A DNA stretch of 64,000 bases from Candidatus Omnitrophota bacterium (GTDB lineage: Bacteria; Omnitrophota; Gorgyraeia; Zapsychrales; Zapsychraceae): NCBI GenBank assembly GCA_021108075.1, contig JAIORP010000068.1, forward strand, positions 74,594-138,593, read 5' to 3'. The notes under the pieces were generated by a model, which saw only the letters and a program-made list of their open reading frames with translations, did not search any database and was not told where the DNA came from. The translations under genes and the position numbers were made by a program. This document shows positions 2,984-61,314 of this stretch, one piece after another (position 1 is the first letter of the stretch; each line of letters starts with the position of its first letter).

Positions 2984-3065
2984 ATACCAAATCCATTAAT
3001 AAATTGTTCTATCTTAATTCTGAAAAGCAGAATTGGGTTTGGTCATTATTTAATGGAATTGGTAT
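2984..3065 (+). repeat. MITE-like palindromic element, full 82-bp copy, forward orientation
   Basis: Sequence is ataccaaatccattaataaattgttctatcttaattctgaaaagcagaattgggtttggtcattatttaatggaattggtat. It has ~17-bp terminal inverted repeats, an internal palindrome, and no coding capacity. Confidence 0.8.
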
Positions 3066-3235
3066 TATCAGACATATCTGATAAGTGATATTGCAGGCTG
3101 AAAGTGGTTTATTGTGTCCGTCCCTCTGATAAAATTAGCATTTTTTATCTGAAAGTCGGAGGGTTAGTTTTTTTTAGTCCTGAAAGTTTTATAGGTACGT
3201 CGTAAATTAATTATTATGAAAAAAATCCTTGAGAT

Positions 3236-3769
3236 ATGAAGATAAAAGAGTCAGAGGCTCAGAAACTCAAAATTATTAGACAAGTTTTTGTGCTTGAACT
3301 CATTGCTTTTATTTCCGTTGGTGCATACTTGTACCTACTGTTTGGCCATTGTATTAATTTTGGCAGATGTATTCTTACAATTTTAATTTATATGATCCCT
3401 GCACAAATTCCACTTGCATTCATTGTTATTGTTTATCACAAATTGATCAACCCTCCTGTTGTTAAGGAAAAAGTGCTATATGATGAAACTAATAAATTGA
3501 ATCATACTTTGAATATCTTCACAAAAACGTTTTTAATAATTTTAAAATGGATAGGGAGTTATGTTTTGTCATTCATTGTTCTTTTTTATGTATGGGCTCT
3601 ATATTGTTTCCATTCTACAACAAGTGAAGCAGGACAAGCTATGGGATTAGTTATTGGTTTGATTTATATCCTTATTGGATTGACAATACTTTTTATTATA
3701 GTTGGTGTTTTGAAGTTTCAAAAAAATAAAAAATTTAAAACATTCCAGCGGACCCAGTCACCGCCCTGA
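3236..3769 (+). CDS. hypothetical multi-pass membrane protein
   Basis: Four to five hydrophobic helices. No known motif. Confidence 0.45.
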   Translation: MKIKESEAQKLKIIRQVFVLELIAFISVGAYLYLLFGHCINFGRCILTILIYMIPAQIPLAFIVIVYHKLINPPVVKEKVLYDETNKLNHTLNIFTKTFLIILKWIGSYVLSFIVLFYVWALYCFHSTTSEAGQAMGLVIGLIYILIGLTILFIIVGVLKFQKNKKFKTFQRTQSPP

Positions 3770-3820
3770 GGTCTTCGCCTGTGCCGCTGGTTTCAAGTGT
3801 TGGGCCTTTGACGTACTCAA

Positions 3821-4684
3821 GTGGAGATTGCTGCGATGACGATCAAAAAAAAGGATCGGAAGCTTTTAGAAGCCGTGAAAAAGGTGGGCTACCAAGAAGG
3901 CGAAACGTTTTTTGGCGGCAGAGCGGTAAACGATATCGGCCTTGAAACAGTTCAGTCTTTGATACGGAACGGGGCAAATGTCAATATGCAGGATGAGGGA
4001 AACGGGTCGACGCCATTGATTCACGCCATTCAAAATTGTAATTTTAAAATTGCCGATTTCCTTATAAGTTCAGGTGCTGATGTTAACCTGCCCAATCGAG
4101 CCGGAGTCTCCCCACTGCACATGGCCGCCATGGTCAGTACTAAAGCGGTATCATTTCTCCTTGAAAAGGGAGCCGATTACAGTTTAAAGACAAAAGACGG
4201 CGTTTCAATTATTGAATGGGCGGAACAAAATAATCTCACAGGCGCTATCGAGACGATAATGGCATGGAAGAATAGGCCCCAGAAGAAGAATAACCCCATG
4301 GGCTTTCTGAAGAAACTTTTTGGCAAAAGAAAAATCACGGAAAGGTCAGTCGACGCCAAACAGTCATCGCAAGGGGCGAAGAAGCTGCCAGATATATTTT
4401 GCGTTGTGACTGATGTGCCTGTGGAAGATCCCGGCGGAGTTGGGAACAGTGTTCTGGATAAGTATGACATAGAAATAGGCCTTGATACGGCTGTTTTGGT
4501 GGTATGCAATAACCGTGTGGTGTGTCAGGCTGAACCGGACCTTCCCTATTTTATGGCGATAGCAATGAGAATAGCAAAGGATAAAGGGTGGCCTCAGGAC
4601 AAAATTAATTATGATAAAATTGTCTGTCGCAGATTTATAATAGATTCGCCCCAAAGAACCAGGGGGTATATCATGACCGTTTAA
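3821..4684 (+). CDS. ankyrin-repeat protein
   Basis: Three to four ankyrin repeats (GANVNMQDEGNGSTPLIHAIQNCNFKIADFLISSGADVNLPNRAGVSPLHMAA...LLEKGADYSLKTKDG) followed by a ~150-aa region of unknown function. Confidence 0.75.
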   Translation: MEIAAMTIKKKDRKLLEAVKKVGYQEGETFFGGRAVNDIGLETVQSLIRNGANVNMQDEGNGSTPLIHAIQNCNFKIADFLISSGADVNLPNRAGVSPLHMAAMVSTKAVSFLLEKGADYSLKTKDGVSIIEWAEQNNLTGAIETIMAWKNRPQKKNNPMGFLKKLFGKRKITERSVDAKQSSQGAKKLPDIFCVVTDVPVEDPGGVGNSVLDKYDIEIGLDTAVLVVCNNRVVCQAEPDLPYFMAIAMRIAKDKGWPQDKINYDKIVCRRFIIDSPQRTRGYIMTV

Positions 4685-4811
4685 GGTGAATAAAGGCATT
4701 GGGTCGGTTTACATTCTTGTCAGATTTTTGAAATGCTATGAGTCTAGAGCCTCATGACAACTGCCCAACAAGACAATCCAGAGGACGTTTTGCAACTGCC
4801 GCTGATTTCAA

Positions 4812-5468
4812 GTGTTGGAGACAAAAAACATGAAACATATAAAAATATTTGTAATAATTATTACGATTTTATTCCTTGCTTCCTATTCATATTCACAGAT
4901 TGAACATTTCGAAATTGGTAAAAATTTAGAAATATCATCAAAATTAATAAAAAAAATTAAAGTTGTGCTTCCTGAGGATTGGAAGATTAAAATTCAGGAA
5001 CAAAAGTTGCGATTCGAAAGGAAGAAAACAATTTCAGCGGTAATCATCGCTCCGAGTATGCCGCCAGGACTTGTAAAACCAAATGAAATTTTATACTATT
5101 GCGTATTGGCAGTAACAGAATTTATATCACCAGATACATTTGCAAAAATAAATAAAAATAATCTAAGATTAGAGAAAGAAGCTGAGTTATTGTATCTCGA
5201 GAAAAAAATTTATGATATTCCAGCAAAAAAATTCAAAGCGCCACCGTGGGAATATGAATATTATCCACGCACACCTGAAGAGTCATCAATTGTCGAGAGA
5301 TACAAATATTTGTATTCTCAAATCCAAATACTCCCAGACTACTATTGTAATGATCAAAGCTTCTTCTTTTATCAGCAAAGATTAAAATATAAAAACGTTA
5401 ATGAAGAAAAAGAATGTAAAAAAATAACACAAAGAATACTAGAATTATTAAATAAATATGAAAAATAA
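4812..5468 (+). CDS. hypothetical secreted protein
   Basis: N-terminal signal peptide (MKHIKIFVIIITILFLASYSYSQ). Lys-rich. No known domain. The start may be the internal ATG at 4830. Confidence 0.5.
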   Translation: MLETKNMKHIKIFVIIITILFLASYSYSQIEHFEIGKNLEISSKLIKKIKVVLPEDWKIKIQEQKLRFERKKTISAVIIAPSMPPGLVKPNEILYYCVLAVTEFISPDTFAKINKNNLRLEKEAELLYLEKKIYDIPAKKFKAPPWEYEYYPRTPEESSIVERYKYLYSQIQILPDYYCNDQSFFFYQQRLKYKNVNEEKECKKITQRILELLNKYEK

Positions 5469-5720
5469 AAAATTTCTAATAAATCGCTCTACACCGACCA
5501 AATTTACCGCCTAAAAAGCGGCGTCAAATCTGGAGGGAGGGCTTAAATGTTAAACGAATATGAAGATCGACTGGACTAAATCCCAACGAATAGAGTAAAA
5601 AGTTCGTAGACGCTGTCCACATCGGCCTTGATATCGAGTTGTTAGGAATAAAACCCGGGCCGAGGTGATGGATTGGATTGAAAATATAAATACGGCAGGG
5701 TTATATTAATGTTGGAACTA

Positions 5721-5802
5721 ATACCAAATCCATTAACAAATTGTCCTATTTTAATTCTGAAAAGCAGAATTGGCTTTGGTCATTATTTAATGGAATTGGT
5801 AT
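5721..5802 (+). repeat. MITE-like palindromic element, 82-bp copy, forward orientation
   Basis: Near-identical to the copy at 2984-3065. Confidence 0.8.
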
Positions 5803-5877
5803 AAATGGGGATAGATAAGTTCCAGACAGCGTCCGCGAATGTTTGTGACGCTTGTTTCAGATAGCAAGGAGTTGACA

Positions 5878-6462
5878 ATGAATGTTCAAAAAAAATGGCT
5901 TATGTTTATGACTATTTGTGTATTGTTTTTTAGTGATCCTTTGAACGCTTCTGCCGACAGATGTGCGGATGTCTTTGATAAAGGCCATCAGAAATTTAAA
6001 GCAGCTAAAGAAGCAGGAGGGCAAAAAAAATATAACCAATCGATTCGACTTTATAAAGAGGCGCAACGGCACTATTGGCAGGCTTCAAACATGATGAATT
6101 GCAAATGTCCTAAACTCAATAAGACGGCCAAGAATAATGTTAATATATGTGATGGCAATATTGAGATAATGAAAAAGAATCTGAAGACTCAAACGAAGTA
6201 CCAAAAGAATTTGAATACCGAGGCCAAGGCCTATGATAAGTATAATAAAGCCCAACGGATATTTGAACAGGGCGATTCATTTGCCAAACGAAAGCAATGG
6301 TCTCGGGCGTATGAAGCATATCGGGAAGCGGCTATGCTTTGGGAGAGCGTTGCAATGACAAACCGATCTGAAAATGGACGGAAGGCCAGGCAAGCTGCCC
6401 GGCAAGCACGCGATCTCGCGAAAAAAGCCCGGCAGCAAAAACGTCAATCGTCTGGAAGGTAA
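5878..6462 (+). CDS. hypothetical secreted Lys/Ala-rich protein
   Basis: AAGGAG RBS 7 nt upstream of ATG 5878. Signal peptide MNVQKKWLMFMTICVLFFSDPLNASA. Basic coiled-coil-like C-terminus. Confidence 0.5.
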   Translation: MNVQKKWLMFMTICVLFFSDPLNASADRCADVFDKGHQKFKAAKEAGGQKKYNQSIRLYKEAQRHYWQASNMMNCKCPKLNKTAKNNVNICDGNIEIMKKNLKTQTKYQKNLNTEAKAYDKYNKAQRIFEQGDSFAKRKQWSRAYEAYREAAMLWESVAMTNRSENGRKARQAARQARDLAKKARQQKRQSSGR

Positions 6463-6489
6463 ATTAAAATGGTTCGAAAAAAATGGGGT

Positions 6490-6540
6490 ATCGCAGACGC
6501 TGTATTGATCAGTATGAGGTAGAATCACATGCGAATAAAA
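6490..6540 (+). repeat. Left copy of a ~50-bp direct repeat flanking the GC-rich island. It contains a TAGAAT hexamer and a conserved hairpin.
   Basis: tcgcagacgctgtattgatcagtatgaggtagaatcacatgcgaataaaat aligns with 7962-8014 at ~85% identity. The stem tcgca/tgcga covaries with ttcgta/tacgaa in the partner copy. Confidence 0.6.
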
Positions 6541-6698
6541 TGCGGGTGTCTCCCCGTCTATACGCCTGTCAGCGGCGTCAGGATTTCGATCGAGGATGGA
6601 ATTGTTTTGTGAGTCTGAGGGCAGATTGTCGCTGCGGACAGCGTCTGCACCAGAATTCGATAAAGAAATATTAAGATTGATCTAATCGAGGGGGCCTT

Positions 6699-7958
6699 AT
6701 GACTAATGAAACGTCAAGACAAACTTCGTCCAGTTCTGGTCCTACGATCTTTCAAGCCTTTATTTGGGGTTTCATGGTCGCGGCGTTTGGCTCACTCTTC
6801 GCCTTCATCGGGAGCCTGATAAGCGATAAACCCGTGCTGCCCCCGGCAGCTGATACCCTTCACGGTGCTTCCACGCCCGCAGAGATGAATCGGGTTGTCG
6901 ATACGCTCCTCTCGGTTGGGAATTTGGCGATCGAACATGATAGCGCGCTGGTCTTGAAGCTGGGATTTACCATCATTGCCTTGTGCGTTCTGACCGTTAT
7001 AGCCACGGTGTGGATCGTCACTCATCGGCGACAGCTTCAGCGCGCGTTGGTCCCGACGTGGCACACGGTGTTACTGATCCTGATGCTGGCTGTGCCGCCT
7101 ATCATCATCACCGTTGGGGCTTGTTTCATGAAAGGCAGCTTGTTCCAGTCTTCTGAGATATCCCACGCCCTGCAAAACGAGAACACTCGCCCGCCGGTCG
7201 TCCGGAAAGGGGCAATGGTAACGGTGCTTATCCCGACAACCTTGCAGTCGTTCTTTGCTTATCACAAGTGTGATTCGTTTAAAATAGAGCATGCCATGGC
7301 TGCGTTGCCCTCGGGTGAGCGCATACCCGTGACCCTGGCTGATGCCCGTTTCAATGACGGCGGACGCAAGCCCGGCAGTACCGACTTCATCCCGCTGATG
7401 GAAAATGTCAAGCTGCGCCTGCAGTTCACCTTGCCGGATGACCCTGAACTTTACGGTGCTGTGATCGACCTGGGCGTTTCCGGATCGCTTAACCTGATTC
7501 CCAGCAGTAGCAAAGAACCGACAGACCGCGAAAATTTCGACATGACAGCGCGTTTTCGTGTCGCGCGTGACCAGGAAGCGGATTTCCAGGAAGACTACGA
7601 TGCGCTTACGTCGAGAGTGACGCGCTACAACTGGTTCTCTTTCCCTTCGGCTGGGTTTGCGATCCTTGGGATCATATTTTTCAGCCCGTGGATGTGCCGG
7701 AAATGCCGTGGGCGGGTCAGCGCCTTCAAGATCAGGGAAGATCATCTTTGTCCGAAGTGCTTTGAAGAACGGCAGAAGGCTGCCGAGGTTAAGAAGAAGA
7801 CCGCTGCGAAAAAAATTTTTTCCGCGCCAGCCACTGACGATCCAAAAAAGCAAGCTGCGCAGAATGAGGCTTCAAAGCTTTCCTGTCCGAATGGTCACGG
7901 GCCCTTACGATTGTGGGATGGCAAACTAAAATGTTGGACCTGTGGGTGGGAGTCCTAA
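6699..7958 (+). CDS. hypothetical membrane protein with C-terminal zinc-ribbon motifs. GC-rich and probably horizontally acquired.
   Basis: GC ~55-58% against ~38% in the flanks. Three to four TM helices. Cys pairs CRKCRG...CPKCFEE and CPNGH...CWTCGW. Confidence 0.5.
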   Translation: MTNETSRQTSSSSGPTIFQAFIWGFMVAAFGSLFAFIGSLISDKPVLPPAADTLHGASTPAEMNRVVDTLLSVGNLAIEHDSALVLKLGFTIIALCVLTVIATVWIVTHRRQLQRALVPTWHTVLLILMLAVPPIIITVGACFMKGSLFQSSEISHALQNENTRPPVVRKGAMVTVLIPTTLQSFFAYHKCDSFKIEHAMAALPSGERIPVTLADARFNDGGRKPGSTDFIPLMENVKLRLQFTLPDDPELYGAVIDLGVSGSLNLIPSSSKEPTDRENFDMTARFRVARDQEADFQEDYDALTSRVTRYNWFSFPSAGFAILGIIFFSPWMCRKCRGRVSAFKIREDHLCPKCFEERQKAAEVKKKTAAKKIFSAPATDDPKKQAAQNEASKLSCPNGHGPLRLWDGKLKCWTCGWES

Positions 7959-7961
7959 AAC

Positions 7962-8014
7962 GTTCGTAGACGCTGAATTGATCTGAATGCGGTAGAATCA
8001 CATACGAACAAAAT
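7962..8014 (+). repeat. Right copy of the ~50-bp direct repeat flanking the GC-rich island
   Basis: gttcgtagacgctgaattgatctgaatgcggtagaatcacatacgaacaaaat. The same core (gacgctg...ttgatc...ggtagaatcacat.cgaa) is present in the left copy. Confidence 0.6.
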
Positions 8015-8270
8015 ATAGAATAAGGGGTCACAACTTGGCAACCAGACTATCTTTACTCAAAGACCTGGGCCAAAGAGAGCCTGAAAAATGTGGTAGAATA
8101 ACGCGTGAAAGAGCCAGAAATAAAGGAGTAATCACCATCACCCTATTCATTCGACCCCGCCCGTCAACCCCGGTCCTGGGGGGCTTTTATGCGAAAGATT
8201 CTCTTTTTTTGTTAGTCCTGAATTTTTTAATGGGAAAGTCGTGGATTAATTGTTTTATGGAAGAAATACA

Positions 8271-8981
8271 ATGAAAGATATCAATGTCATAAATATCAAC
8301 AGTACTAATTTTTATTTACTTAAATGTAAAGAAGGTTATTTGCTTATAGATGCCGGGTGGGTTGGTAAATATAATAATTTTAAAAAGGCGTTAAGCAGAC
8401 TTAATATTAGCATCGATTCCATAAAATTTATATTGATAACGCATCACCATCATGATCACACCGCTCTGGTTCAAGATATTCGTAAAGAAACCAAATGTAA
8501 AATTATCTTACATAAATATGAAACCGGTTATATTGAAAAAGGAATTACCTGTATCAATGAAACCAGGCAGTTCAATATTTATTTACGCTTACTGGACAGG
8601 GTCCTCTCTCCATTTATTAAATATGATTACACTCCAATAGCATTGAATGAATCTGACATAATCATCAATAATGGTCATTACAACATTTATGACCTTACAG
8701 GAATAAAAGGGGAAATATTCCATACGCCGGGACATTCAAAGGGTTCTATTTCATTGCTGTTGTCAAATGGAGACGCTTTCGTCGGGGATGTCGCGATGAA
8801 CATCTTAAAAGTGTTTGGTCATAAATATCGACCGGTTGAAGCGGAAGATTATAGTGAAATATATAAAAGCTGGGAGAAATTAATTCAATACGGCGCAAGA
8901 AATATATATCCTTCGCATGGTCATAAATTTTCTGTTGACGAATTGAGAAAATGTTTATCAGAAGAAAGAAAGTTTATATAA
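8271..8981 (+). CDS. MBL-fold metallo-hydrolase
   Basis: HxHxDH motif (ITHHHHDHTALV) plus downstream His/Asp ligands (HTPGHS, GDVA). A ggaag RBS lies before ATG 8271. Confidence 0.8.
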   Translation: MKDINVININSTNFYLLKCKEGYLLIDAGWVGKYNNFKKALSRLNISIDSIKFILITHHHHDHTALVQDIRKETKCKIILHKYETGYIEKGITCINETRQFNIYLRLLDRVLSPFIKYDYTPIALNESDIIINNGHYNIYDLTGIKGEIFHTPGHSKGSISLLLSNGDAFVGDVAMNILKVFGHKYRPVEAEDYSEIYKSWEKLIQYGARNIYPSHGHKFSVDELRKCLSEERKFI

Positions 8982-8991
8982 TAATGGGATA

Positions 8992-9054
8992 ATACCAATT
9001 TTATTAAATAATGACCGGCATCGAAATAGAACAATGAATAAATGGATTTGGTAT
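8992..9054 (-). repeat. MITE-like element, internally deleted copy (63 bp), reverse orientation
   Basis: Both terminal inverted repeats are retained (ataccaattttattaaataatgacc ... aataaatggatttggtat). Confidence 0.6.
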
Positions 9055-9124
9055 AAACACGGAATTGAAAAAACGGACGATTTTTTAAACCGTTTATTCG
9101 GGGGGGTAAACGAGAAAATAAAAT

Positions 9125-9592
9125 ATGAAATTTGAAATAAAACAAATCGGAACCATCCGTTCTCCATACAAAAGTAAAAAGGAATGCCCGATTCAAGGAG
9201 GCATCAAACCCGGAGGAATAGGCGGAATAGAGATATTCCCGGAATATGAAGAAGCATTGGAAACAATAGAAACATTTTCACATATCATACTATTGTATAT
9301 ATTTGACAGGGCGGATGAAATAAAATTATCCGGACCGACTTTCCTTGATGACGCTTTCCATGGAGTCTTCGCCTCCCGTCACCCCTGCAGGCCGAATGGA
9401 ATTGGAATCTCTATAGTAAAATTAGAAAAAAGAAACAAAAATATTTTAGAAGTCAGCGAAATAGACGTTTTAGACAATACGCCGCTTGTTGACATAAAAC
9501 CATATATTCCAAGATTTGATTATCGGGAAAATGCTAACAATGGTTGGACTGAAATAAAAAAAATACGTGAGAAACCGTCAGGTCGAGAATAA
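9125..9592 (+). CDS. TsaA/YaeB-family (TrmO-like) SAM-dependent methyltransferase domain protein
   Basis: IGTIRSPYKSKKECPIQGG ... FASRHPCRPNGIGISIVKL ... DVLDNTPLVDIKPYIP fits the TsaA-like fold signature (N-terminal RSP...P.Q motif). Confidence 0.7.
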   Translation: MKFEIKQIGTIRSPYKSKKECPIQGGIKPGGIGGIEIFPEYEEALETIETFSHIILLYIFDRADEIKLSGPTFLDDAFHGVFASRHPCRPNGIGISIVKLEKRNKNILEVSEIDVLDNTPLVDIKPYIPRFDYRENANNGWTEIKKIREKPSGRE

Positions 9593-10491
9593 GATAAAAA
9601 TTTGTAACACATGCACGGTTCCCGTTGTTAGGGAGAAAGACTTCCCTGGCGAAGATTTTCAATGATTTTTTATAGTTGTAAAGAATTTATTTCATTAACG
9701 CGTTTTTGTGTTTTTAGATGTTTCGGGATGCGGGAAGCCTATTGAGAGAATCACACCCGGATCTCTCAATAGTAATTTTCAATTTATTTTATTTGACCCC
9801 CGGTTGATGGATACAAAATAATAGATTTATTCCTTGTCGAATATCAGCCATTTTCCTGAATAATAAGAATGGAAAGAACAGCTGTTTCTTTTTTTAGGAT
9901 AAAACGCTTGATTCCGGTCAAAGGACATGATTGAATACGTATATATCAAATATCAAAATTTAAGAATAATATCAGGGAAGTGGTGCTTTTGTGTTTTTTA
10001 AATTACCAGGGAATGCGCTGGTTTTTTTAATATAGCTGATCCTGAAGAGCGACTAAAATGCTTGAAACAGTTAAAGTTAAGTTAAAAAACATGGTATGGT
10101 TTGCAAGAACACGACGGGAAAAAAAGGAAAACCCGCAAGATAAAACCACAAAAAATAAATGCGATTTATAGTGCGACCTGTTTAAAATCGAGTTAATTCG
10201 GATCATTGATCCGAATCATCCGCTGGCAAATCTGATGAAACAAATAACGGCTCAGCATTTGATCAACGATTTGAGAAGCATTTTGCGGATGAAGGACGGC
10301 CAGCGAGCTCGAAACGATTGATGGTCAGTTTATATTATTTGGTCGGTCCTGAAAAAGCCTGTTTTTAGGCTGTCAGGATCATCTGCTTTAGTAACAGACA
10401 TATGCCGTAACCGGAATGAGATAAAATTTATTTAATTCAGGTCATGGCGCGTGTCTGACATTTATAACCCGGATTTCTTTTGGAGGATAAC

Positions 10492-13400
10492 ATGAAAAGG
10501 TTTATTTACTTATCCCTGATTTCCCTGTTGATGCTTCCGTCCTTACATCATCAAACAGTTTATGCTAAAGAAGAGATGACGCAAGGGATCGGTCAAGAGC
10601 GGCAGGATCGCGGGAATGACTCTCAGTTCAGCATTCAAGAAATTTATGTTCCTTATGAAAATTTGAATGAGGCTTTACAAAAAAAAGAGAAGGGTGTTTT
10701 GATCCCGTATTCTGATTTTTTGCGCTTATGGGAGAAAGCGTCTAAAAAGCCGCCGTCAAAGGCTCCTCCGGTTCCCCCCGTGGACGCGGCTATCATTCAC
10801 TCGGAATACAAGGGAAAGGTTCTTGATGATATTGCCGAGTTTGAAGCGGAACTGAAAATTTCCGCCTTAAAAGAAAAATGGGCTAAATTACATTTAAATA
10901 TAAAAGATATCGCGATTACATCCTTATCTCTTAACGGGAAAACTCCTCTTTTGAAACCGGTTAAAGGGGGATTAGAACTGATCCTGCCGGAAAAAGGTGA
11001 GTATATTCTTAAAGTGAATTTTTCCGCGCAAGTCAATACGTCTCCCGGAGAAAAATTCATCCATTTCCGCGTCCCGTCATCACCTCTTACCAAAATAGAT
11101 ATGACTGTTCCCGGCAAAGATTTAGATGTTAAAATTGAGCCGATGCTTTCTAAGAAAAGTAATGTCGACGGAGATAATACGAAATTCTCCGCGTTTCTCG
11201 CTCCGGGAGGCGATGTGAATATCCGGTGGTTAGCGAAAACAACGGACACGAAAGTAACCAGGAGTCTTATCTTCGCGAAATTATTGAATGAAGTGAATAT
11301 TAAAGAATCTGTTTATTTAATCAACACAAAAATTAATTTTTCGATTATGCAGGCGGAAACAGATTCCTTCCAGGTCAAGATTCCCAAAGCGTTAAGTCTT
11401 GTCCGCGTGGATGGAAAAAACATTAAAGATTGGGAAATGAGTGAAGAGGGGGTCCTAACGGTTAACCTCTATGAAAAAATAGACGGTCAGTATATTCTTT
11501 CTGTGAGCACGGAAAAATACCGTGATTTAGAAGAGAACTCTTTTGAAATCCCTCAGTTTGAAGTGCTTAATGCCAAGAGAGAAGAGGGGGAAATTATTAT
11601 TAAAGCCGAACCGTCTTTACGCGTTCAGGTTGAGAAAAAAGACCGCGTCACACAAATTGATCCGAAAGAACTTCAAGGCCGGGTGACATTTAATGAACTT
11701 GTCTCAGCTTTTAAATATTTTCGACGTCCCTTTCATGTCAGTTTAAATATTTCTAAAATTCAGCCTAAAATTACCGCTGAACAGAATGTTTTTATTTCTT
11801 TTTCTGAAACAATTATTGATTATTACACGAATGTAAAATTTACGGTAAAGGACGCGGGGTTGTTTAAGTTCAGATTTATTATTCCGGATAATTTTAGAAT
11901 CGTTGAGGTCGGATCAGATCAAACGGTTGATAGCTTTGATGTTTCTAAAGAAAAGGATCAGAATATTTTAACTGTTATTTTGAAGAATAAAGCTTACGCC
12001 AATTTTTTGTTACCGATTCATCTGGAAGCCGATAAGGAGGATAAGGATGTTGTGTTGGCTTTGCCGAAAGTTCAATGTTTAGACGCGGAAAAGGAAGAGG
12101 GGATTATTACTCTTTCTCTTCGTAAAAATCTTAAATTATCGACGGACGATATGAAATCTTTGCGTCCGATCAGTCTGGAAGAATTAAAGTCCCAGGGGAC
12201 AAGAGATCCGGATATCAAGAATGAGATAGCAGCAGGTTATCGCTACGCGACACCGGATTATTCCTGTCGTTTGAAAATTGATAAAAGAAAGACAAAAATT
12301 ATCGCGAGTGTTGAACGGAATATTGATGTTGAAGAAGCTGTCATGAAAATTAATGATGTTATCCGTTACAATATTTTATACGCTCCGACAAGTTTGTTCC
12401 GGATAGAGCTTCCTGCCGCGATCGCGAAAGACGTTATTATCAGCGGGAACAATATTAAGGAAAAACGGCTGGCCGTTAATGAAGAAATTCAAAAAGGCGT
12501 TTGGACCATTGAACTTCATTCTCCGACGCTGAATAATTTTGATTTAAATGTTAGTTTCGAAAAGAAACTTCCGTCGATCAAGACAGGAGATGAAAGAATA
12601 ATTGAGGTGCCGGGGATCAGGGTCATTGATGTTTTTAATGAGACCGGGTATATCTCAGTATCGAAAAGTCCTGATCTTCAGGTTGAAGCTAAAGAAAAGA
12701 ATTTAGATCCCGTGGATTCAAAAGAAATTCCTGCCGCTATGAATCGTAGCCAGAGTGTGCTCGCTTTTAGATATTTAAGTCATCCGTACGCGCTTTCTCT
12801 GGAAACGACGAAACATGAGTATGAAAAAATATTGGATGCTGTTGTTAATCAAGCTCATTTTGATATTGTTGTTTCTAATGAAGGTGTCGCGAAAACAGAA
12901 GGGGTTTTCAGAATACAAAATACCAACCGGCAGAGTCTTGAGTTGACCATGCCGGAAGGAATAGATAAAATTTATTCTGTTTTTATTTCCGGTAAAAAAG
13001 CGGGTATATCAAAGGGGGGTTCGGATAGAAGTAAAATTATTATGTTGCCTAAAGATATCGCGCCGGGTAAAGAATTCACGTTGAGAATTATTTATCAAAC
13101 CCAGATAAAATCTAAATTTGGATTCTGGGGCGGACTTCACGTGAAAGGCGCGGAGATTATGGATATTCCCTGTTCGAAGATTACCTGGAGGCTGTATCTT
13201 CCGAATGAATACAGTTATCTGTATTTAAAAGGTTCCATTAATCCCGGCAGAGATGAGCATCGCGCTTATAATCATGTTAATGCTGCTGTGCAATCCCGAC
13301 GGGTCCATCATCAAACAAAAATTAATTTAACCCGTAATCAGATTCCTCAGCAAACAGATGAAGGGACTCTTTACGGCTTAGATATTGAGATGGTCCGGGA

Positions 13401-13764: not shown

Positions 13765-13783
13765 AACACGGGAAACAAGGATT

Positions 13784-21956: not shown

Positions 21957-22038
21957 ATACCAATTCCAGTAAATAATGACCAAAACCAATTTTGCTTTTC
22001 AGAATTAAGATAAAACAATTTATTAATGGATTTGGTAT
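21957..22038 (-). repeat. MITE-like palindromic element, 82-bp copy, reverse orientation
   Basis: ataccaattccagtaaataatgaccaaaaccaattttgcttttcagaattaagataaaacaatttattaatggatttggtat. Confidence 0.8.
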
Positions 22039-22766: not shown

Positions 22767-22830
22767 CCATTTTTTGCGTCTGAAAAACGGCAGGTGACCT
22801 TTGTGTTGTACGGATAAAAAAAGGAAAAAA

Positions 22831-26418: not shown

Positions 26419-26500
26419 ATACCAATTCCATTAAATAATGACCAAAACCAATTCTGCTTTTCAGAATTAAGATAGAACAATTTATTAATGGATTTGGTAT
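26419..26500 (-). repeat. MITE-like palindromic element, 82-bp copy, reverse orientation
   Basis: ataccaattccattaaataatgaccaaaaccaattctgcttttcagaattaagatagaacaatttattaatggatttggtat. Confidence 0.8.
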
Positions 26501-35062: not shown

Positions 35063-35069
35063 AAAAAAA

Positions 35070-35123
35070 GTAAGGACGGTTAGTACTTTTTTAAAAAAAG
35101 CACCAACCGTCCTTACTTTTTTT
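35070..35123. terminator. bidirectional rho-independent terminator between convergent genes
   Basis: Stem gtaaggacggtt (35070-35081) pairs with aaccgtccttac (35105-35116). It is flanked by an A-run upstream and a T-run (35117-35123) downstream, so it works in both orientations. Confidence 0.6.
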
Positions 35124-44326: not shown

Positions 44327-44470
44327 ATACCAAACGCATTAATGAATTGTTCTATTTCAATTTTGATGTTCTCGTTAAAGTGTTGAGAAAAGCAGAATCG
44401 GTTTTGGCAATTATTTAATGAAATGAATTCCTCTGAGATCTGTTGCGAGGAGATTCACTGGAATTGGTAT
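44327..44470 (+). repeat. MITE-like element, 144-bp variant with two internal hairpin insertions
   Basis: The termini ataccaaacgcattaatgaattg ... ttatttaatg...ggaattggtat match the family. The core contains the extra stem-loops ttctcg..cgagaa-like and tcctc..gagga. Confidence 0.65.
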
Positions 44471-56691: not shown

Positions 56692-56704
56692 GTTGTAAAA
56701 TTTT

Positions 56705-56754: not shown

Positions 56755-56767
56755 AAGGTTAGCTGAT

Positions 56768-58324
56768 ATGATTAAAGTAAAGCGAGCATTGATTAGTGTT
56801 TCAGACAAGGGAGGGCTTGTCCCTTTTGCCCAGGGTTTAGCGCGTTTAGGTATTGAGATTATTTCCACAGGGGGAACATCCCGCATTTTACAAGAAGCCG
56901 GCATTGAGGTTAAAGAGGTTTCAGACTTTACCGGTTTCCCGGAAATGTTGGACGGTCGCGTTAAGACGTTGCACCCCAAAATCCACGCAGGATTACTTGC
57001 CATTCGCTCCAATGAGGAACACATGCAGCAACTCAAAAAACACCGTATGAAGTTGATTGATATGGTTGTTGTGAATTTATATCCGTTTGAAAGCGTCATT
57101 CAAAAGAAACGCGTTGCCTTTGAGGCAGCGATTGAAAATATTGATATTGGCGGGCCGACCATGTTGCGTGCTGCGGCCAAGAATTTCAACAGTGTTGCTG
57201 TTGTTTGCAATCCCGGACGGTATGATGATATCCTTACGGAACTCGAGAATAAGAGTGGTTTGTTGTCGGATACCGTGTTGTTTAGTTTAGCGGTCGAAAC
57301 ATTTAAGCATACGGCCAGCTATGACAATGTTATTGCTGAATATCTCGGCCAGTGTCAATCCATGGACGATTTTGGGTCCATGCCCGCAAACGTCAGCTGG
57401 TCTTTTGCGAAGATTCAGGATCTCCGTTATGGGGAAAATCCTCATCAATCGGGTGCTTTTTATTCTGTCGCAGGGCAAAAAAAGGGTTTAGCCTCTTTAC
57501 GGCAATTGCACGGAAAAGAATTGTCTTTTAATAATATTTTAGACCTGCACGCAACGGTCGCGTGTGTGCGGGAGTTTGAAAATCCTGCCGCTGTGATTAT
57601 TAAACATAACAATGCGACCGGTGTGGCCGAAGACAAATTTTTAACCACGGCATTTCAAAACGCGTTAAAGTGTGATCCGGTTTCTGCGTTTGGCGGTATT
57701 ATTGGACTGAATCGATCTGTCGACGAAAAAACCGCACAATTGATTGTTAAGAGCGGGTTTATGGAATGTGTTATCGCGCCGTCTTTTCAGAAGGCCGCCT
57801 TAAAGGTCTTGACCCGGAAGAAGAACTTGCGCCTATTGACGTTAGATTTCCGTAAAATCAACAAGAATGGCTATGATTTTAAACAAGTGTTTGGCGGTTT
57901 GTTGCTGCAGGACCGTGACGAACGGGCTTTGACCACAAACGAATTAAAGTTTGTGACCAAAAAAAAACCCACCAGGACTCAGCTTGATGCGATTATGTTT
58001 GGCTGGAAAGTCGTCAAGCATATTCGGTCCAATGCTATTATTCTTGTTAAAGGCCAAAAAACCGTTGGCATTGGCTGTGGGCAAACCAGTCGAGTTGAAA
58101 GTGTCCGGATCGCTATTCATAAAGCCGGGGCACAGGCTCAAAATGCGACGCTCATTTCGGATGCGTTTATTCCAAAGACGGATAATGTCGACCTGGCTGC
58201 TCAGGCCGGAATAAAACTGATTGTCCAGACAGGGGGGTCAATAGCTGATAAAGAAGTGATTGCGGCCGCAGACAAAGCCGGGGTTGCTATTGTTATGACC
58301 GGTGTTCGCCATTTTAAACATTAG
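56768..58324 (+). CDS. purH: bifunctional AICAR transformylase / IMP cyclohydrolase
   Basis: N-terminal MGS-like region ALISVSDKGGLVPFAQGLARLGIEIISTGGT ... KTLHPKIHAGLLA, and full length (~518 aa). Confidence 0.9.
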   Translation: MIKVKRALISVSDKGGLVPFAQGLARLGIEIISTGGTSRILQEAGIEVKEVSDFTGFPEMLDGRVKTLHPKIHAGLLAIRSNEEHMQQLKKHRMKLIDMVVVNLYPFESVIQKKRVAFEAAIENIDIGGPTMLRAAAKNFNSVAVVCNPGRYDDILTELENKSGLLSDTVLFSLAVETFKHTASYDNVIAEYLGQCQSMDDFGSMPANVSWSFAKIQDLRYGENPHQSGAFYSVAGQKKGLASLRQLHGKELSFNNILDLHATVACVREFENPAAVIIKHNNATGVAEDKFLTTAFQNALKCDPVSAFGGIIGLNRSVDEKTAQLIVKSGFMECVIAPSFQKAALKVLTRKKNLRLLTLDFRKINKNGYDFKQVFGGLLLQDRDERALTTNELKFVTKKKPTRTQLDAIMFGWKVVKHIRSNAIILVKGQKTVGIGCGQTSRVESVRIAIHKAGAQAQNATLISDAFIPKTDNVDLAAQAGIKLIVQTGGSIADKEVIAAADKAGVAIVMTGVRHFKH

Positions 58325-58333
58325 TATCCAGGG

Positions 58334-59779
58334 TTGGCATCCGTCTTTCGTTCGAGAATGTTTCTATTTAATGATTTTGACCTGCCAGATATGAAGACAC
58401 AAGACATTGAATCTTATCTCTCATCATTTCCTAATTATGAAGTTAATCTGACCGAAAAGAAATACGTGGATTTTTCTTTGTGCCGTATTCATGCCTTATT
58501 AAAAAAAATGTGTGACCCGCAGGAAGCATTAACCATCGTGCATGTCGCCGGATCGAAGGGCAAGGGATCGACTTGTGTCATGGTGGCACATATTTTAAAG
58601 GCCGCAGGTTATGTTGTCGGATTGTACACATCCCCCCACTTGTATCGGCTTAATGAGCGGATTCGTTTATTGAGACCCGAACAGGACAAAAAGAAAATCC
58701 GTGTTGCGTCCGGACAGGTGCTGTATGACGATGAGATCGCAGCGGAAGAATTAGCGGACGTGATCCGCGCGTTAAAACCTGTTTTAGACGGGTCTCGCTT
58801 TCACCCTGAACAGGGTTACTTAACGTATTTTGAATTGTTGACAGCGCTAGGTCTCTACTATTTCAGAGAGCAAAAAGCGGATGTTGCCGTTTTGGAGACA
58901 GGATTGGGAGGGCGCTATGATGCGACAAATAGTGTTGATGCGGATTGCATTGCGATAACATCGATCAGCCTGGAGCACACGGCCTTACTAGGGACGTCCT
59001 TGCCAGCTATTGCCCGGGAGAAAGTAGCGATTGTTAAGCATTCGGATCAAAGGGTTGTATTGGCGCCGCAATCTTCTGATGTGTTGCACGTCCTTCAGTC
59101 TTATTGCGCGCGTCTTCAGGTTAATCCGATTATGGCCCAGGAACCGATTGGTGGTCAAATTGTTAAGTCGCATGGCTCTGGGTGTGGTCAAGTTTTCAAT
59201 GTCCAATCAAGCCGGGGACGATATAAAAATCTTTTTTTACCTTTGTTGGGAGCGCATCAACGGATCAACGCGGCCGTGGCCATTGAACTGGCCGAACAGC
59301 TGAAGGCCTTGTCTTTTAAGGTCCATCCGCAGGATATTCGACAGGGGTTGTCGGATATTTTTTGGCCTATTCGTTTTGAAGTGCTGCAGCACGCACCGGT
59401 TATGATTTTAGATGCGGCGCATAATGCATATTCCATGTCATTGCTGGCTCAAGATGTCCAAGACCTGTATCCGCAACGCAAGGTTTACGCCTTGGTCGGT
59501 TTTTTAAAAGATAAGAATGTTCAGGCGATGTTCGATGTGTTATCCCGATTTTCTGATGAAATCATCGTCACGCAAAGTCATCATCCCCGAGCTTATGCCT
59601 GTGAAGAGATGGATGTTCGCTTAGCAAAGAATATGGTATCATTAATGACAATCAAAAATGTAGAAGAAGCGGTCGAATGCGTCTTGGCCAAGGCGCGGCC
59701 AGAGGATGTTATTGTCGTTTCAGGATCCATTTTTGTTGTCGCTCATGTACGGCAATATATGGTTTTGAAGAACGCGTAA
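58334..59779 (+). CDS. folC: folylpolyglutamate synthase / dihydrofolate synthase
   Basis: Mur-ligase P-loop VAGSKGKGST and FolC-like domain organisation. Confidence 0.8.
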   Translation: MASVFRSRMFLFNDFDLPDMKTQDIESYLSSFPNYEVNLTEKKYVDFSLCRIHALLKKMCDPQEALTIVHVAGSKGKGSTCVMVAHILKAAGYVVGLYTSPHLYRLNERIRLLRPEQDKKKIRVASGQVLYDDEIAAEELADVIRALKPVLDGSRFHPEQGYLTYFELLTALGLYYFREQKADVAVLETGLGGRYDATNSVDADCIAITSISLEHTALLGTSLPAIAREKVAIVKHSDQRVVLAPQSSDVLHVLQSYCARLQVNPIMAQEPIGGQIVKSHGSGCGQVFNVQSSRGRYKNLFLPLLGAHQRINAAVAIELAEQLKALSFKVHPQDIRQGLSDIFWPIRFEVLQHAPVMILDAAHNAYSMSLLAQDVQDLYPQRKVYALVGFLKDKNVQAMFDVLSRFSDEIIVTQSHHPRAYACEEMDVRLAKNMVSLMTIKNVEEAVECVLAKARPEDVIVVSGSIFVVAHVRQYMVLKNA

Positions 59780-59795
59780 AGTTGAAAGGTTTTTT

Positions 59796-61211
59796 ATGTA
59801 TCAATATCAAGGAATGGAAGATACGATTGTCGCGATTGCCACCCCCATGGGGCAGGGTGGCATAGGGCTTGTTCGTTTAAGTGGGCAGCAATCCATCGCG
59901 ATCGCCGACAAAATGTTTTTAGGCCGTTCAGGGCAGAAGCCATCTGGATTTAAAACTTTTTCCGTCCATTATGGTGATGTTTTTTATCCGCAAGTGGAGT
60001 CCTTATCCTCAAAAGCAAATGTTGTTGATGAGGTTTTATTGACTGTGATGCTGGCCCCGAAAAGTTACACGACTGAAGATGTTGTTGAAATAAGCTGTCA
60101 TGGTGGCCTTGTGGTTTTAGAAACAATTGTGAAGATCGCCATGCATCATGGAGCACGCTTGGCAGAACCGGGTGAATTTACAAAAAGGGCCTTTTTGAAC
60201 GGGCGTATAGATCTAACGCAGGCAGAAGCTGTTTTAGATGTTATTCAATCTAGGACCGATAAATTCTTGCAGGTCAGCACGCATCAATTGAAGGGGGACC
60301 TTTCTGTTTTTTTAGAAAGAATACGTACAAATTTAATGCATGAATACACCCATCTCGAAGCTTTGATCAATTTTCCCGAGGAGGAAATTGATAGTCAAGG
60401 CAGCAAGCCATCATCTGACCCGTTGATCGCGATCGAACAGGATATTAAGGCCCTTTTAGATTCATCGCGCAAAGGACAGATTCTCAAAGAAGGTTTAAAG
60501 GTTGTGTTTTGTGGCAAACCCAACGTGGGCAAATCATCGCTGCTGAATGTTTTATTAAAACATCCCCGCGCGATTGTCTCACATATTGCGGGAACGACAC
60601 GCGATACCATTGAGGAAGTGGCCCATATTCAAGGCATTCCCTTTCAATTGATTGATACCGCCGGAATTCTTGAGCCTTGTGATGCGATAGAGCAAGAAGC
60701 GGTTAGACGGAGCCATACGCACCGCCAAAGTGCGGATGTCGTTGTTTTGGTTTTAGACCAACATCAGGCATTGGATTGGAAGGATGAAAAAATTATTGAG
60801 GTTGTTCAGGGACAGAACGTTATCGTCTTGTTCAATAAATGTGACTTGCCTAAGGGGATCGATGATATTGTCTTAAAAGAAAAATTTCCGACACAAACGA
60901 TATTATTTGTTTCAGCCTTGACCCGAACAGGGATAGAGGCCTTTGAGGAAGCGATTGTTCAGCAGGTTTTAGGGGATTCATCCCCGGATCATTACGGTTT
61001 AATGATCAGCAATTTGAGACATGTTCAATCGCTGCGGGATTGTCAGAAACAAATTTTGTCTGCCTTAGACGACCGTCAAAAGAATTTGTCCTTAGAATTT
61101 GTTTCTGACCGGATTAAGCGCGCGGTAAACTCTTTGGATCAGATTACCGGTCGAAATATTGATTTTGATTTGATTGATCAAATTTTTTCACAGTTTTGCA
61201 TCGGGAAGTAA
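59796..61211 (+). CDS. mnmE: tRNA modification GTPase MnmE
   Basis: N-terminal DTIVAIATPMGQGGIGLVRLSG, G-domain GKPNVGKSSLLN, and the C-terminal CIGK tetrapeptide. Confidence 0.9.
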   Translation: MYQYQGMEDTIVAIATPMGQGGIGLVRLSGQQSIAIADKMFLGRSGQKPSGFKTFSVHYGDVFYPQVESLSSKANVVDEVLLTVMLAPKSYTTEDVVEISCHGGLVVLETIVKIAMHHGARLAEPGEFTKRAFLNGRIDLTQAEAVLDVIQSRTDKFLQVSTHQLKGDLSVFLERIRTNLMHEYTHLEALINFPEEEIDSQGSKPSSDPLIAIEQDIKALLDSSRKGQILKEGLKVVFCGKPNVGKSSLLNVLLKHPRAIVSHIAGTTRDTIEEVAHIQGIPFQLIDTAGILEPCDAIEQEAVRRSHTHRQSADVVVLVLDQHQALDWKDEKIIEVVQGQNVIVLFNKCDLPKGIDDIVLKEKFPTQTILFVSALTRTGIEAFEEAIVQQVLGDSSPDHYGLMISNLRHVQSLRDCQKQILSALDDRQKNLSLEFVSDRIKRAVNSLDQITGRNIDFDLIDQIFSQFCIGK

Positions 61212-61314
61212 TACCAAATCCATTAATTAATTGTTCTATTTCAATTCTGATATTCTCGCTAAAGCGTCGAGAAAAGCAGAATCGGTTTTGGTCATTATTT
61301 AATGGAATTGGTAT
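61211..61314 (+). repeat. MITE-like element, 104-bp variant with one internal hairpin insertion
   Basis: ataccaaatccattaattaattgttctatttcaattctga[tattctcgctaaagcgtcgagaaa]agcagaatcggttttggtcattatttaatggaattggtat. It lies immediately after the mnmE stop. Confidence 0.75.

What the first reader, a model, noticed from the sequence alone, without database searches (positions are those of the whole stretch)
2984..61314. A family of ~82-bp MITE-like palindromic elements is present in at least 8 copies in 64 kb
Copies lie at 703-852 (nested or degenerate), 2984-3065, 5721-5802, 8992-9054 (internally deleted), 21957-22038, 26419-26500, 44327-44470 (144 bp) and 61211-61314 (104 bp). They have ~17-bp terminal inverted repeats (ataccaaatccattaa…ttaatggaattggtat) and a conserved core (ttctatcttaattctgaaaagcagaattgg). 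They occur in both orientations and are strictly intergenic. The variants carry extra internal hairpins: copies 7 and 8 share the inserted stem-loop t[at]ttctcg…cgagaaa. One copy per ~8 kb is unusually dense. Several copies sit directly after stop codons (for example after mnmE) and may double as terminators, or may bound accessory gene cassettes.
Basis: seen in the sequence. Interest (0 to 1): 0.6.

Follow-up and report, generated by a model that had tools for sequence, protein, structure and literature searches.

The report
Small mobile DNA repeats in Omnitrophota
The repeats are real: a family of ~80–105-bp non-coding "hitch-hiker" transposons (MITEs) in an uncultured Omnitrophota bacterium that insert at TTA/TAA sites, which is an ordinary kind of element but a previously undescribed family whose transposase is still unknown.

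Summary
Observation confirmed. The window holds 8 full copies and 1 fragment at the stated coordinates (0 expected by chance).

New here: the element proper is TACC…GGTA. Every full copy in the window is flanked by a perfect 3-bp direct repeat, TTA or TAA, and so are 20 of about 27 copies overall. This is a target-site duplication, which makes the MITE reading strong.

The ~103-bp form with the central TTCTCG…CGAGAA hairpin is ancestral. The window's four 80-bp copies are a 22-nt deletion derivative that went on amplifying.

The family also occurs in two other MAG species. A wider set of ~100-bp elements in metagenomes and in Pseudoalteromonas chromids shares the same terminus (TACCAATTCC…) and the same TWA duplication but has unrelated interiors.

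A syntenic relative lacks the element after mnmE. In the window, the duplication at that site is the mnmE stop codon.

The terminator idea is not supported: there is no T-tract and orientation is random.

No autonomous partner was found. An IS5/PIF-Harbinger-like transposase is inferred from the 3-bp TWA duplication only.

Unexpected: the window differs from otherwise identical public contigs only in the 2.2-kb segment bounded by two inverted copies. This is either recombination through the MITEs or an assembly switch at the repeats.

Verdict: new member of a known kind, modest interest.

The parts
704..806 (-). Full 103-bp copy of the hairpin-bearing subfamily. TSD TAA at 701-703 and 807-809. 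It forms the left border of the variable segment.
   Evidence: It is 92% identical to a copy in Omnitrophota OFTM38 (L009).
807..852 (+). Truncated fragment (about positions 16-60) of an 80-bp-type copy, abutting the 704-806 copy.
   Evidence: (I9/I10). It is present only in the window's haplotype, not in L070/L071.
2985..3064 (+). 80-bp copy (deletion derivative). TSD TTA at 2982-2984 and 3065-3067. It forms the right border of the variable segment.
   Evidence: Its left ~30 nt differ at 3 positions from the same copy in L070/L071.
5722..5801 (+). 80-bp copy, TSD TAA/TAA, 37 bp upstream of ORF 5839-6462.
8993..9053 (-). 61-bp copy with an internal deletion of the core. TSD TTA/TTA in element orientation. 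It lies between the MBL-fold gene and trmO.
   Evidence: It no longer folds as a hairpin.
21958..22037 (-). 80-bp copy, TSD TTA/TTA in element orientation, downstream of the 2691-aa ORF.
26420..26499 (-). 80-bp copy, closest to the subfamily consensus (79/80 identical to the 2985 copy). TSD TTA/TTA.
44328..44469 (+). 142-bp copy: the hairpin-bearing form plus a private 40-nt insertion (about 44417-44456) that splits the right TIR. TSD TTA/TTA. It lies between the AsnC-family gene and the aminotransferase gene.
61212..61313 (+). 102-bp hairpin-bearing copy. TSD TAA/TAA, and the left TAA (61209-61211) is the mnmE stop codon.
   Evidence: It is identical in a second strain contig, L025. The element is absent from the same spacer in the syntenic relative L022.
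810..2980 (.). Segment between two inverted MITE copies. It is replaced by a different 2,077 bp (beta-lactamase-fold gene) in otherwise identical public contigs.
1040..2865 (-). 1,826-bp IS1182/IS5-like insertion sequence (532-aa DDE transposase, ORF 1180-2778) inside the variable segment. It is not the partner of this MITE: its ends (AGGAGCTTGTCCGAGAACTAG) are unrelated.
   Evidence: (I11). Coverage of 204.9x against 14.6x gives about 14 copies per genome.

Best explanation

Each element has about 20-bp terminal inverted repeats (TACCAAWTCCATTAAATAAT...ATTATTTAATGGAATTGGTA), two short spacers and a central 12-bp hairpin. The ancestral form is about 103 bp.

A transposase supplied in trans binds the two TIRs, excises the element and inserts it at a TTA/TAA (TWA) trinucleotide with a 3-nt staggered cut. 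Repair of that cut leaves the 3-bp duplication seen at the ends.

In the window's lineage a 22-nt deletion of the central hairpin produced an 80-bp derivative. It kept the TIRs and a shorter hairpin and amplified to at least four copies.

Shown: the repeats, TIRs, TSDs, subfamily structure, hairpin potential with compensatory changes, spread to other genomes, and an empty orthologous site.

Inferred: the trans-acting enzyme. It is most likely a DDE transposase of the IS5 / PIF-Harbinger type, judged only from the 3-bp TWA duplication (about 35% confidence for that sub-claim).

Secondary effect: because copies are 80-100 bp of near-identical sequence, they can act as homology arms for recombination. 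This is the likeliest reason that one 2.2-kb segment bounded by two inverted copies differs between otherwise identical assemblies.
For: 1. Eight of 8 full copies in the window have identical TTA or TAA triplets on both sides. Across the window and the first 19 loci, 20 of about 27 copies have a perfect TWA duplication, one has TCA/TCA, and most of the rest are one mismatch off. The chance of a matching TWA pair is about 0.001 per copy, so P is below 1e-37.
2. The triplet reads TTA in some copies and TAA in others relative to the element's internal asymmetry. It is therefore target DNA, not part of the element.
3. Elements with the same TIRs but unrelated interiors exist: L004:4279, L006:4931; 17 loci of a Ga0074199/Ga0209749 family; a UOGJ family; 163-bp and 263-bp forms; and a 207-bp Pseudoalteromonas element. 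All have TWA duplications. This is the pattern expected when only the transposase-binding ends are constrained.
4. Copies are inserted into or directly beside other copies and share the TTA: window 704, L002:2569, L004:1979, L014:6388, and nested copies in L057.
5. There is no coding capacity and all copies are intergenic. There is no Rfam match.
6. In the syntenic relative L022, mnmE ends in TAA followed by a 68-bp spacer without the element, and there is no copy in 21 kb. In the window the element sits exactly after that TAA, with TAA repeated on its far side.
7. The four 80-bp copies are 73-79/80 identical, which indicates recent amplification.
8. The literature uses TSD length and sequence as a signature of the transposase superfamily, and gives 3 bp for PIF/Harbinger and IS5 against TA for Tc1/mariner (PMC4122938; PMC12730594).
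Against: No autonomous element with matching TIRs was found. The places searched were the window, about 647 kb of fetched loci from MITE-bearing genomes, viral contigs, a metagenome scan designed to avoid MITE interiors, and annotated plasmids/chromids.

The termini (TACC...) do not resemble the GG/GA-starting ends I recall for IS5-family elements (own knowledge).

No presence/absence polymorphism of a copy was seen between strains. The copies at 61212, 5722, 21958, 26420 and 44328 are present in all available contigs.

The 'empty site' comes from a relative whose MnmE is only 68% identical, so the spacers cannot be aligned base for base.

Compensatory changes in the TIR stem and central hairpin could also mean that selection acts on structure, not only on transposase binding.
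Confidence: 0.87

Rival explanations
1. REP/REPIN-type element. On this reading the repeats are paired palindromic units replicated by a RAYT (IS200/IS605-like tyrosine transposase) and kept for a host function. They would not be TIR/DDE-type MITEs.
For: The size is about 100 bp, the elements form long hairpins, they are intergenic and dense, and both helices show compensatory changes.
Against: REP/REPIN and IS200/IS605-derived elements do not make target-site duplications (own knowledge). Here 20 of about 27 copies have a perfect TWA duplication whose orientation is independent of the element. No RAYT-like gene was seen in the window's annotated ORFs, but not all ORFs were scanned.
Confidence: 0.03
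2. A MITE of the IS630/Tc1-mariner type with a TA duplication, like the Neisseria Correia elements or pneumococcal RUP, rather than a 3-bp TWA duplicator.
For: Every flank contains TA. The elements are similar in size and hairpin shape to Correia and RUP (own knowledge).
Against: A TA duplication fits only if the element carries an extra A at its left end in some copies and an extra T at its right end in others. The 3-bp TTA/TAA reading fits all 8 window copies with symmetric ends TACC...GGTA. One copy has TCA/TCA.
Confidence: 0.05
3. A host-selected structured regulatory element (terminator, mRNA-stabilising hairpin or promoter carrier) whose spread is secondary. On this reading the conservation reflects function, not transposase recognition.
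For: RNA folds are stable, -16 to -36 kcal/mol with z down to -7. There are compensatory changes. The same architecture of terminal stem plus central hairpin, at about 100-105 bp, recurs in families with unrelated interiors. A weak outward -35/-10 (TGGTCA-17-TATTAT, using the TSD) is flagged at 3040-3068.
Against: There is no T-tract, and no copy is flagged as terminator-like. Promoter-like hits in the region are no more frequent than in shuffles: 31 against 28.5 +/- 6.1. Orientation relative to neighbours is random: four copies have the right end facing a downstream gene start and four face gene 3' ends. Damaged copies (8993-9053, 44328-44469) persist.
Confidence: 0.05
4. About the variable segment only. 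The difference between the window and the public contigs at 810-2980 is an assembly artefact, with the assembler switching paths inside the 80-103-bp repeats. It would not be a real MITE-anchored recombination.
For: The breakpoints fall inside repeat copies, and all four flanking mismatches lie within the MITE copies. This is exactly where a graph assembler can switch. No independent contig spanning the window's junctions was found. No long contig on record carries the IS transposase.
Against: The window traverses a 1.8-kb IS present at about 14 copies per genome. Short-read assemblers normally cannot do that, which suggests long-read support, and chimeras at 100-bp repeats are unlikely with long reads (inference). 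The alternative haplotype is identical in two independent samples (L070, L071). Real recombination would give the same mismatch pattern.
Confidence: 0.4

Closest known systems
Bacterial MITEs in general (for example Correia/NEMIS of Neisseria and RUP of Streptococcus pneumoniae)
   Same: Size of about 80-160 bp, non-coding, terminal inverted repeats, a whole-element hairpin, high copy number, intergenic location, target-site duplication, and deletion or insertion variants within a family.
   Different: Correia and RUP duplicate TA and are linked to IS630-type partners (own knowledge; review PMC10969869 read). This family duplicates TTA/TAA, has different termini (TACCAATTCC...), has no identified partner, and occurs in Omnitrophota.
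Tourist-like MITEs / PIF-Harbinger transposons of eukaryotes and their bacterial IS5-family relatives
   Same: A 3-bp duplication at TWA (TTA/TAA) in AT-rich target DNA (PMC4122938; PMC12730594). Many MITE families share the TIRs of one transposase.
   Different: No PIF/IS5-type transposase with these TIRs was found here. The termini do not resemble the ends I recall for IS5/PIF elements (own knowledge). The link rests on the TSD alone.
REP/BIME and REPIN elements
   Same: Dense, intergenic, hairpin-forming repeats of about 100 bp with compensatory changes. They can act as substrates for recombination.
   Different: REPINs have no TIR-plus-TSD signature and are tied to RAYT genes (own knowledge). 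Here clear TWA duplications are present.
Unannotated ~207-bp elements in Pseudoalteromonas chromids, and ~100-bp families in metagenomes Ga0074199, Ga0209749 and UOGJ01
   Same: The same terminus (TACCAATTC...), the same TTA/TAA duplication, the same architecture of terminal stem plus central hairpin, and nested insertions.
   Different: The interiors are unrelated and the hosts belong to different phyla. These are probably sister families mobilised by related transposases, not the same family.

Membership tests
MITE (non-autonomous TIR transposon) | Short length (under about 300 bp) with no coding capacity | tested here: met
   Copies are 61-142 bp. There is no consistent ORF, and all lie between genes.
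MITE (non-autonomous TIR transposon) | Terminal inverted repeats | tested here: met
   A terminal stem of about 20 bp, paired in 93.7% of cells across 20 copies.
MITE (non-autonomous TIR transposon) | Target-site duplication of fixed length flanking each copy | tested here: met
   Eight of 8 copies in the window and 20 of about 27 overall have a perfect 3-bp TWA duplication. Its orientation is independent of the element.
MITE (non-autonomous TIR transposon) | Multiple dispersed copies, also outside this window | tested here: met
   Eight copies plus 1 fragment in the window.
MITE (non-autonomous TIR transposon) | Evidence of insertion: an empty orthologous or paralogous site, or nested insertions | tested here: met
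   The spacer is empty after mnmE-TAA in the syntenic relative L022. There are insertions into or beside other copies. No strain-level presence/absence polymorphism was found.
MITE (non-autonomous TIR transposon) | An autonomous partner IS with matching TIRs | tested here: inconclusive
   None was found in the window, in 647 kb of loci, in viral contigs, in one metagenome scan or in PLSDB. Whole genomes could not be scanned.
IS5 / PIF-Harbinger-derived (Tourist-like) MITE | A 3-bp TWA (TTA/TAA) target-site duplication | tested here: met
   The family trait is taken from PMC4122938.
IS5 / PIF-Harbinger-derived (Tourist-like) MITE | TIRs matching those of an IS5/PIF-type transposase-encoding element | tested here: inconclusive
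   No partner was found. The only IS5-superfamily element in the window (IS1182-like, 1040-2865) has unrelated ends.
IS630/Tc1-mariner-derived MITE (Correia or RUP type) | A TA dinucleotide duplication | tested here: not met
   The flanks fit a symmetric element only with a 3-bp TTA/TAA duplication.
REP / REPIN | No target-site duplication, and association with a RAYT gene | tested here: not met
   TSDs are present. No RAYT was seen among the 20 annotated window ORFs.
Intrinsic (Rho-independent) terminator | A G+C-rich stem followed by a T/U tract, oriented with the upstream gene | tested here: not met
   No copy is flagged. The stems are A+T-rich, nothing is followed by a U-tract, and orientation is random.
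Known RNA family (Rfam 15) | A match at the gathering threshold | tested here: not met
   There were 0 matches in the whole window.

The most novel reading that the evidence does not exclude
The window's family may be one branch of a cross-phylum superfamily of ~100-bp MITEs, found in Omnitrophota, marine Gammaproteobacteria and diverse metagenomes. On this reading all members are defined by the terminus TACCAATTCC, a TWA duplication, and a length- and structure-constrained layout of terminal stem plus central hairpin.

They would be mobilised by a bacterial transposase lineage that has not yet been linked to them, possibly a prokaryotic counterpart of PIF/Harbinger. In this genome they would also act as portable homology arms that swap gene cassettes between strains, here a beta-lactamase-fold gene for an IS-bearing segment.
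Probability: 0.2. Interest if true: 0.55.

Novelty: new member of a known kind. Interest (0 to 1): 0.3.

Why it matters
Mobile DNA in Omnitrophota, an uncultured and often host-dependent phylum, is essentially undescribed. My literature searches found nothing on MITEs in this phylum.

This family gives a ready marker for strain typing and for assembly problems in these MAGs, since contigs break or switch at the copies.

It also gives a clean signature (TACCAATTCC terminus plus TWA duplication) with which to look for an unrecognised transposase lineage shared with marine Gammaproteobacteria.

If the MITE-bounded segment replacement is real, it shows in a natural population how 80-100-bp repeats mediate swaps of gene content. 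None of this changes the general picture of what MITEs are.

Tried and rejected
1. Autonomous partner. I searched for solo TIRs and for TIR pairs 0.5-3.5 kb apart with matching TWA in the window and all loci, and found none.
   - The partial copies in L016 and L018 lie beside HtpG, MetH, TsaD and a peptidase gene, not a transposase.
   - The viral-contig TIR hit is a chance match inside an ORF.
   - The metagenome scan with TSD + TIR + a base not found in any MITE returned only more MITE families, truncated remnants (L034 lies beside a TetR-like gene) and about 10 chance hits in what I read by eye as an HNH-endonuclease-like motif, not tested against a family library.
   - PLSDB hits carry no transposase under them, and the IS30-family gene near one Pseudoalteromonas copy has unrelated ends.
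   - A phmmer screen of 701 ORFs with the window's transposase found only that same IS.
2. The window's own IS1182-like IS as the partner. Rejected because its ends are unrelated.
3. Strain-level empty sites. L025, L071, L079-L085 all carry the same copies.
4. Independent support for the window's junctions through ORFs 722-1006 and 2887-3081. Neither is on record.
5. Terminator or promoter role.
6. Rfam. No match.
7. Literature on Omnitrophota or Pseudoalteromonas MITEs. Nothing specific.
8. A TTAA (piggyBac-like) or TA duplication. Neither fits the flanks.


Full report

Yes. The repeat finder and profile searches with nhmmer recover every listed copy:
- 703-807 (-)
- 2984-3065 (+)
- 5721-5802 (+)
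- 8992-9054 (-)
- 21957-22038 (-)
- 26419-26500 (-)
- 44327-44470 (+)
- 61211-61314 (+)

The "703-852 nested or degenerate" region is one full 103-bp copy (704-806) followed directly by a 46-bp fragment of a second copy (807-852). Together the pieces occupy 774 bp, 1.2% of the window. Rfam has no match at gathering threshold anywhere in the window, and there are no tRNAs.

**2. The key new fact: a target-site duplication.**

If the element is taken as TACC...GGTA, every one of the 8 full copies is flanked on both sides by the same trinucleotide. In element orientation it is TTA...TTA in six copies and TAA...TAA in two (5722 and 61212).

The triplet can read either way relative to the element's asymmetric interior. 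It is therefore duplicated target DNA and not part of the element.

The rule holds outside the window. Among about 27 full copies in the window and the first 19 loci:
- 20 have a perfect TWA duplication.
- One has TCA/TCA.
- Most of the rest are one mismatch away.

From the window's trinucleotide frequencies, a matching TWA pair is expected with p of about 0.001 per copy. The observed count has P below 1e-37 even under a generous A+T-rich model. A TA or TTAA duplication does not fit a symmetric element.

**3. Organism and distribution.**

NCBI names the window's MnmE as coming from a Candidatus Omnitrophica MAG. The matching public contig is ENA ERZ26872899 NODE_2, 168,659 bp.

The 19 loci fetched hold at least 25 copies.

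In those genomes nearly all copies are 102-105 bp and carry the central hairpin TTCTCG-loop-CGAGAA. The window's 704-806 copy is 92% identical to an OFTM38 copy (L009). The one alignable coding stretch between the window and CAZIRV01 is only 67% identical. This hints, weakly, at horizontal spread or at constraint on the element.

**4. Anatomy and family history.**

The alignment of 20 hairpin-bearing copies (A1) and the single-strand folds give one architecture:
- a terminal stem of about 20 bp (the TIRs);
- about 15-nt unpaired spacers on each side;
- a central 12-bp hairpin with a 9-10-nt loop.

DNA-fold z-scores run from -3.8 to -8.6 for intact copies. The internally deleted 8993-9053 copy and the interrupted 44328-44469 copy no longer fold well.

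Six base pairs, three in each helix, show changes on both sides. Versions of the structure slid by 1-3 columns show 0-2, and no shuffle out of 500 reaches the observed values. The sequences are related, so this is supportive and not decisive.

The window's four 80-bp copies equal the 102-bp form minus 22 nt of the central hairpin. They still form a 7-10-bp central stem and are 73-79/80 identical to one another. Only the extra 40 nt in 44328-44469 is a private insertion. It is unique in the window and splits the right TIR, so that copy is probably dead.

**5. Same ends, different interiors.**

Two copies in CAZIRV01 (L004:4279-4383 and L006:4931-5039) have the same TIRs and TSD but an unrelated interior.

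A metagenome scan for TSD + TIR followed by a base that no known subfamily has returned 42 loci:
- 17 belong to a ~100-bp family from Ga0074199/Ga0209749, with a diverged right TIR and TTA/TAA flanks.
- Others form a ~101-bp UOGJ family, 163-bp and 263-bp forms, and a nested pair of two subfamilies in a TARA contig.
- About ten are chance hits in coding sequence that I read by eye as an HNH-endonuclease-like motif; I did not test that.

In PLSDB, unannotated ~207-bp elements with the terminus TACCAATTCGC... and a TTA duplication occur at 3-17 copies per Pseudoalteromonas chromid.

All families folded here show the same layout of terminal stem plus central hairpin. Conserved ends with freely varying interiors is what is expected when the ends are the transposase-binding sites.

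**6. Evidence of insertion.**

Several copies lie directly against the end of another copy and share its TTA (L002:2569, L004:1979, L014:6388), or lie inside another copy (window 704-806 next to the fragment at 807-852; L057).

The copy at 61212-61313 begins immediately after the mnmE stop codon, and that TAA is its left TSD. The nearest relative on record is L022, with MnmE 68% identical. It has the same gene order (purH-folC-mnmE-cvpA<-pilZ-pilZ-SBP), its mnmE also ends in TAA, its 68-bp spacer has no element, and it has no copy in 21 kb.

At strain level I found no presence/absence polymorphism. L025, L071 and L079-L085 carry the same copies.

**7. What it does not appear to be.**

Terminator. 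No copy matches the stem-plus-T-tract pattern. The RNA hairpins are stable (-16 to -36 kcal/mol) but A+T-rich and are not followed by U-tracts.

Regulatory element. Orientation is random relative to neighbours, with four right ends facing a downstream start and four facing a 3' end. One weak outward promoter-like match uses the element end plus the TSD (TGGTCA-17-TATTAT, 3040-3068), but promoter-like matches in the region are not enriched over shuffles.

REP/REPIN or IS200/IS605-derived elements. These do not create duplications (own knowledge).

IS630/Correia-type elements. These duplicate TA (own knowledge; for Tc1/mariner).

**8. Mechanism and the missing partner.**

The best-supported mechanism is trans-mobilisation by a DDE transposase that makes a 3-nt staggered cut at TWA. 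The literature treats TSD length and sequence as a signature of the superfamily and assigns 3 bp to PIF/Harbinger and IS5 (PMC4122938; PMC12730594).

That is the only basis for naming the enzyme type, and I rate that sub-claim at about 35%. I could not find the autonomous element (see the tried-and-rejected section). The window's own IS, at 1040-2865, is not the partner because its ends are unrelated:
- It is 1,826 bp and encodes a 532-aa DDE_Tnp_1_6/DUF772 transposase.
- It has about 14 copies per genome, from coverage of 204.9x against 14.6x.
- Its ends read AGGAGCTTGTCCGAGAACTAG.

**9. An unexpected structural difference bounded by two copies.**

The window is 100% identical to NODE_2 over 14650-54204 and 56796-64000. 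It differs by only 4 mismatches over 1-809 and 2981-13769, and all four lie inside the copies at 703-807 and 2984-3065.

The DNA between those two inverted copies is entirely different:
- The window has 2,171 bp: the copy fragment, a second small repeat and the IS.
- NODE_2 (L070) and an independent sample (L071) have 2,077 bp encoding a 362-aa beta-lactamase-fold protein.

Both versions keep intact TSDs.

The pattern fits exchange through the MITE copies. On the left, the fragment following the 704-806 copy is what would result from recombination with a sister copy nested in an 80-bp element elsewhere. On the right, the crossover would lie between positions ~25 and ~50 of the 2985 copy.

It equally fits an assembler switching paths at the repeats. 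I could not find independent contigs spanning the window's junctions. The window traverses a 14-copy, 1.8-kb IS, which argues for long-read support and so for a real variant, but this is inference. I put real recombination at about 60% and artefact at about 40%.

**10. Comparison, novelty and verdict.**

The element meets every testable defining feature of a MITE except an identified partner. It works like Tourist-type (TWA) MITEs, and it differs from the classic bacterial TA-duplicating MITEs such as Correia and RUP.

It is a new member of a known kind. My searches found no published description of MITEs in Omnitrophota or of this terminus.

The density of about 1 per 8 kb is high but not outside what is known for Correia or REP elements (own knowledge). 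It is also uneven: 6 of 8 copies lie in the first 27 kb, among ankyrin, serpin, scramblase and giant-protein genes.

Interest is modest at 0.3. The more novel reading is a cross-phylum superfamily with an unrecognised transposase lineage that also acts as cassette-swapping homology arms. The evidence does not exclude it; I give it about 0.2.

Noticed in passing
window 897-1043 (IR arms 899-934 / 1006-1041); L015:100-245; L005:6202-6347; L073: A second, unrelated small palindromic repeat of about 145 bp. Its ends (AGGAGGCTGTCCGAGAA) resemble those of the adjacent IS1182-like IS (AGGAGCTTGTCCGAGAACTAG). It is 88% and 81% identical to copies in the CAZIRV01 MAG, and the repeat+IS arrangement recurs in a diverged copy (L073). 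It is probably a non-autonomous derivative of that IS.
   Followed up: partly
window 1040-2865: A 1,826-bp IS1182/IS5-like IS, 100% identical across six contigs from several samples. In short-read assemblies it is collapsed into ~1.8-kb contigs at about 14x chromosomal coverage (204.9 against 14.6), so there are about 14 copies per genome.
   Followed up: partly
window 810-2980 vs L070:7669-9745 and L071: The window is not identical to its closest public contig. A 362-aa beta-lactamase-fold gene (PF00144) in the public version is replaced in the window by the IS-bearing segment.
   Followed up: partly
L024:16576-16680 (about 5.5 kb beyond the right end of the window on the same contig): Another ~105-bp palindromic element with different TIRs (ACCCGAAAAATGCAATTGG...CCAATTGCATTTTTCGGGT) flanked by TTA/TAA-like bases. 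It may be a third MITE-like family in this genome.
   Followed up: no
window 6491-6541 / 7964-8014, and 8066-8176 vs L070:9164-9279: Direct repeats (86% identical) bracket ORF 6699-7958, which sits in a 50% G+C island within DNA of 34-39% G+C. A ~115-bp sequence next to it also occurs beside the beta-lactamase-fold gene of the other haplotype (85% identical). This looks like another small repeat associated with imported genes.
   Followed up: no
window 3821-4684, 22801-24054, 24650-25237, 10480-13764, 13715-21790: A cluster of eukaryote-like genes (ankyrin repeat, serpin, scramblase) and two giant ORFs (1094 and 2691 aa) with no Pfam match. This fits a host-associated lifestyle, and most MITE copies lie in this region.
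   Followed up: no
window 35063-35123: A near-perfect 30-bp inverted repeat with a 1-nt loop and A/T runs on both sides, lying between convergent ORFs 34430-35062 (+) and 35113-36744 (-). It looks like a bidirectional intrinsic terminator and is unrelated to the MITE.
   Followed up: no
L069:4005-4211 and 99 places in 13 PLSDB records (Pseudoalteromonas chromids): An unannotated ~207-bp MITE-like family in cultured Pseudoalteromonas, with 3-17 copies per chromid, terminus TACCAATTCGC and a TTA duplication. It would be a tractable cultured system in which to look for the shared transposase.
   Followed up: partly
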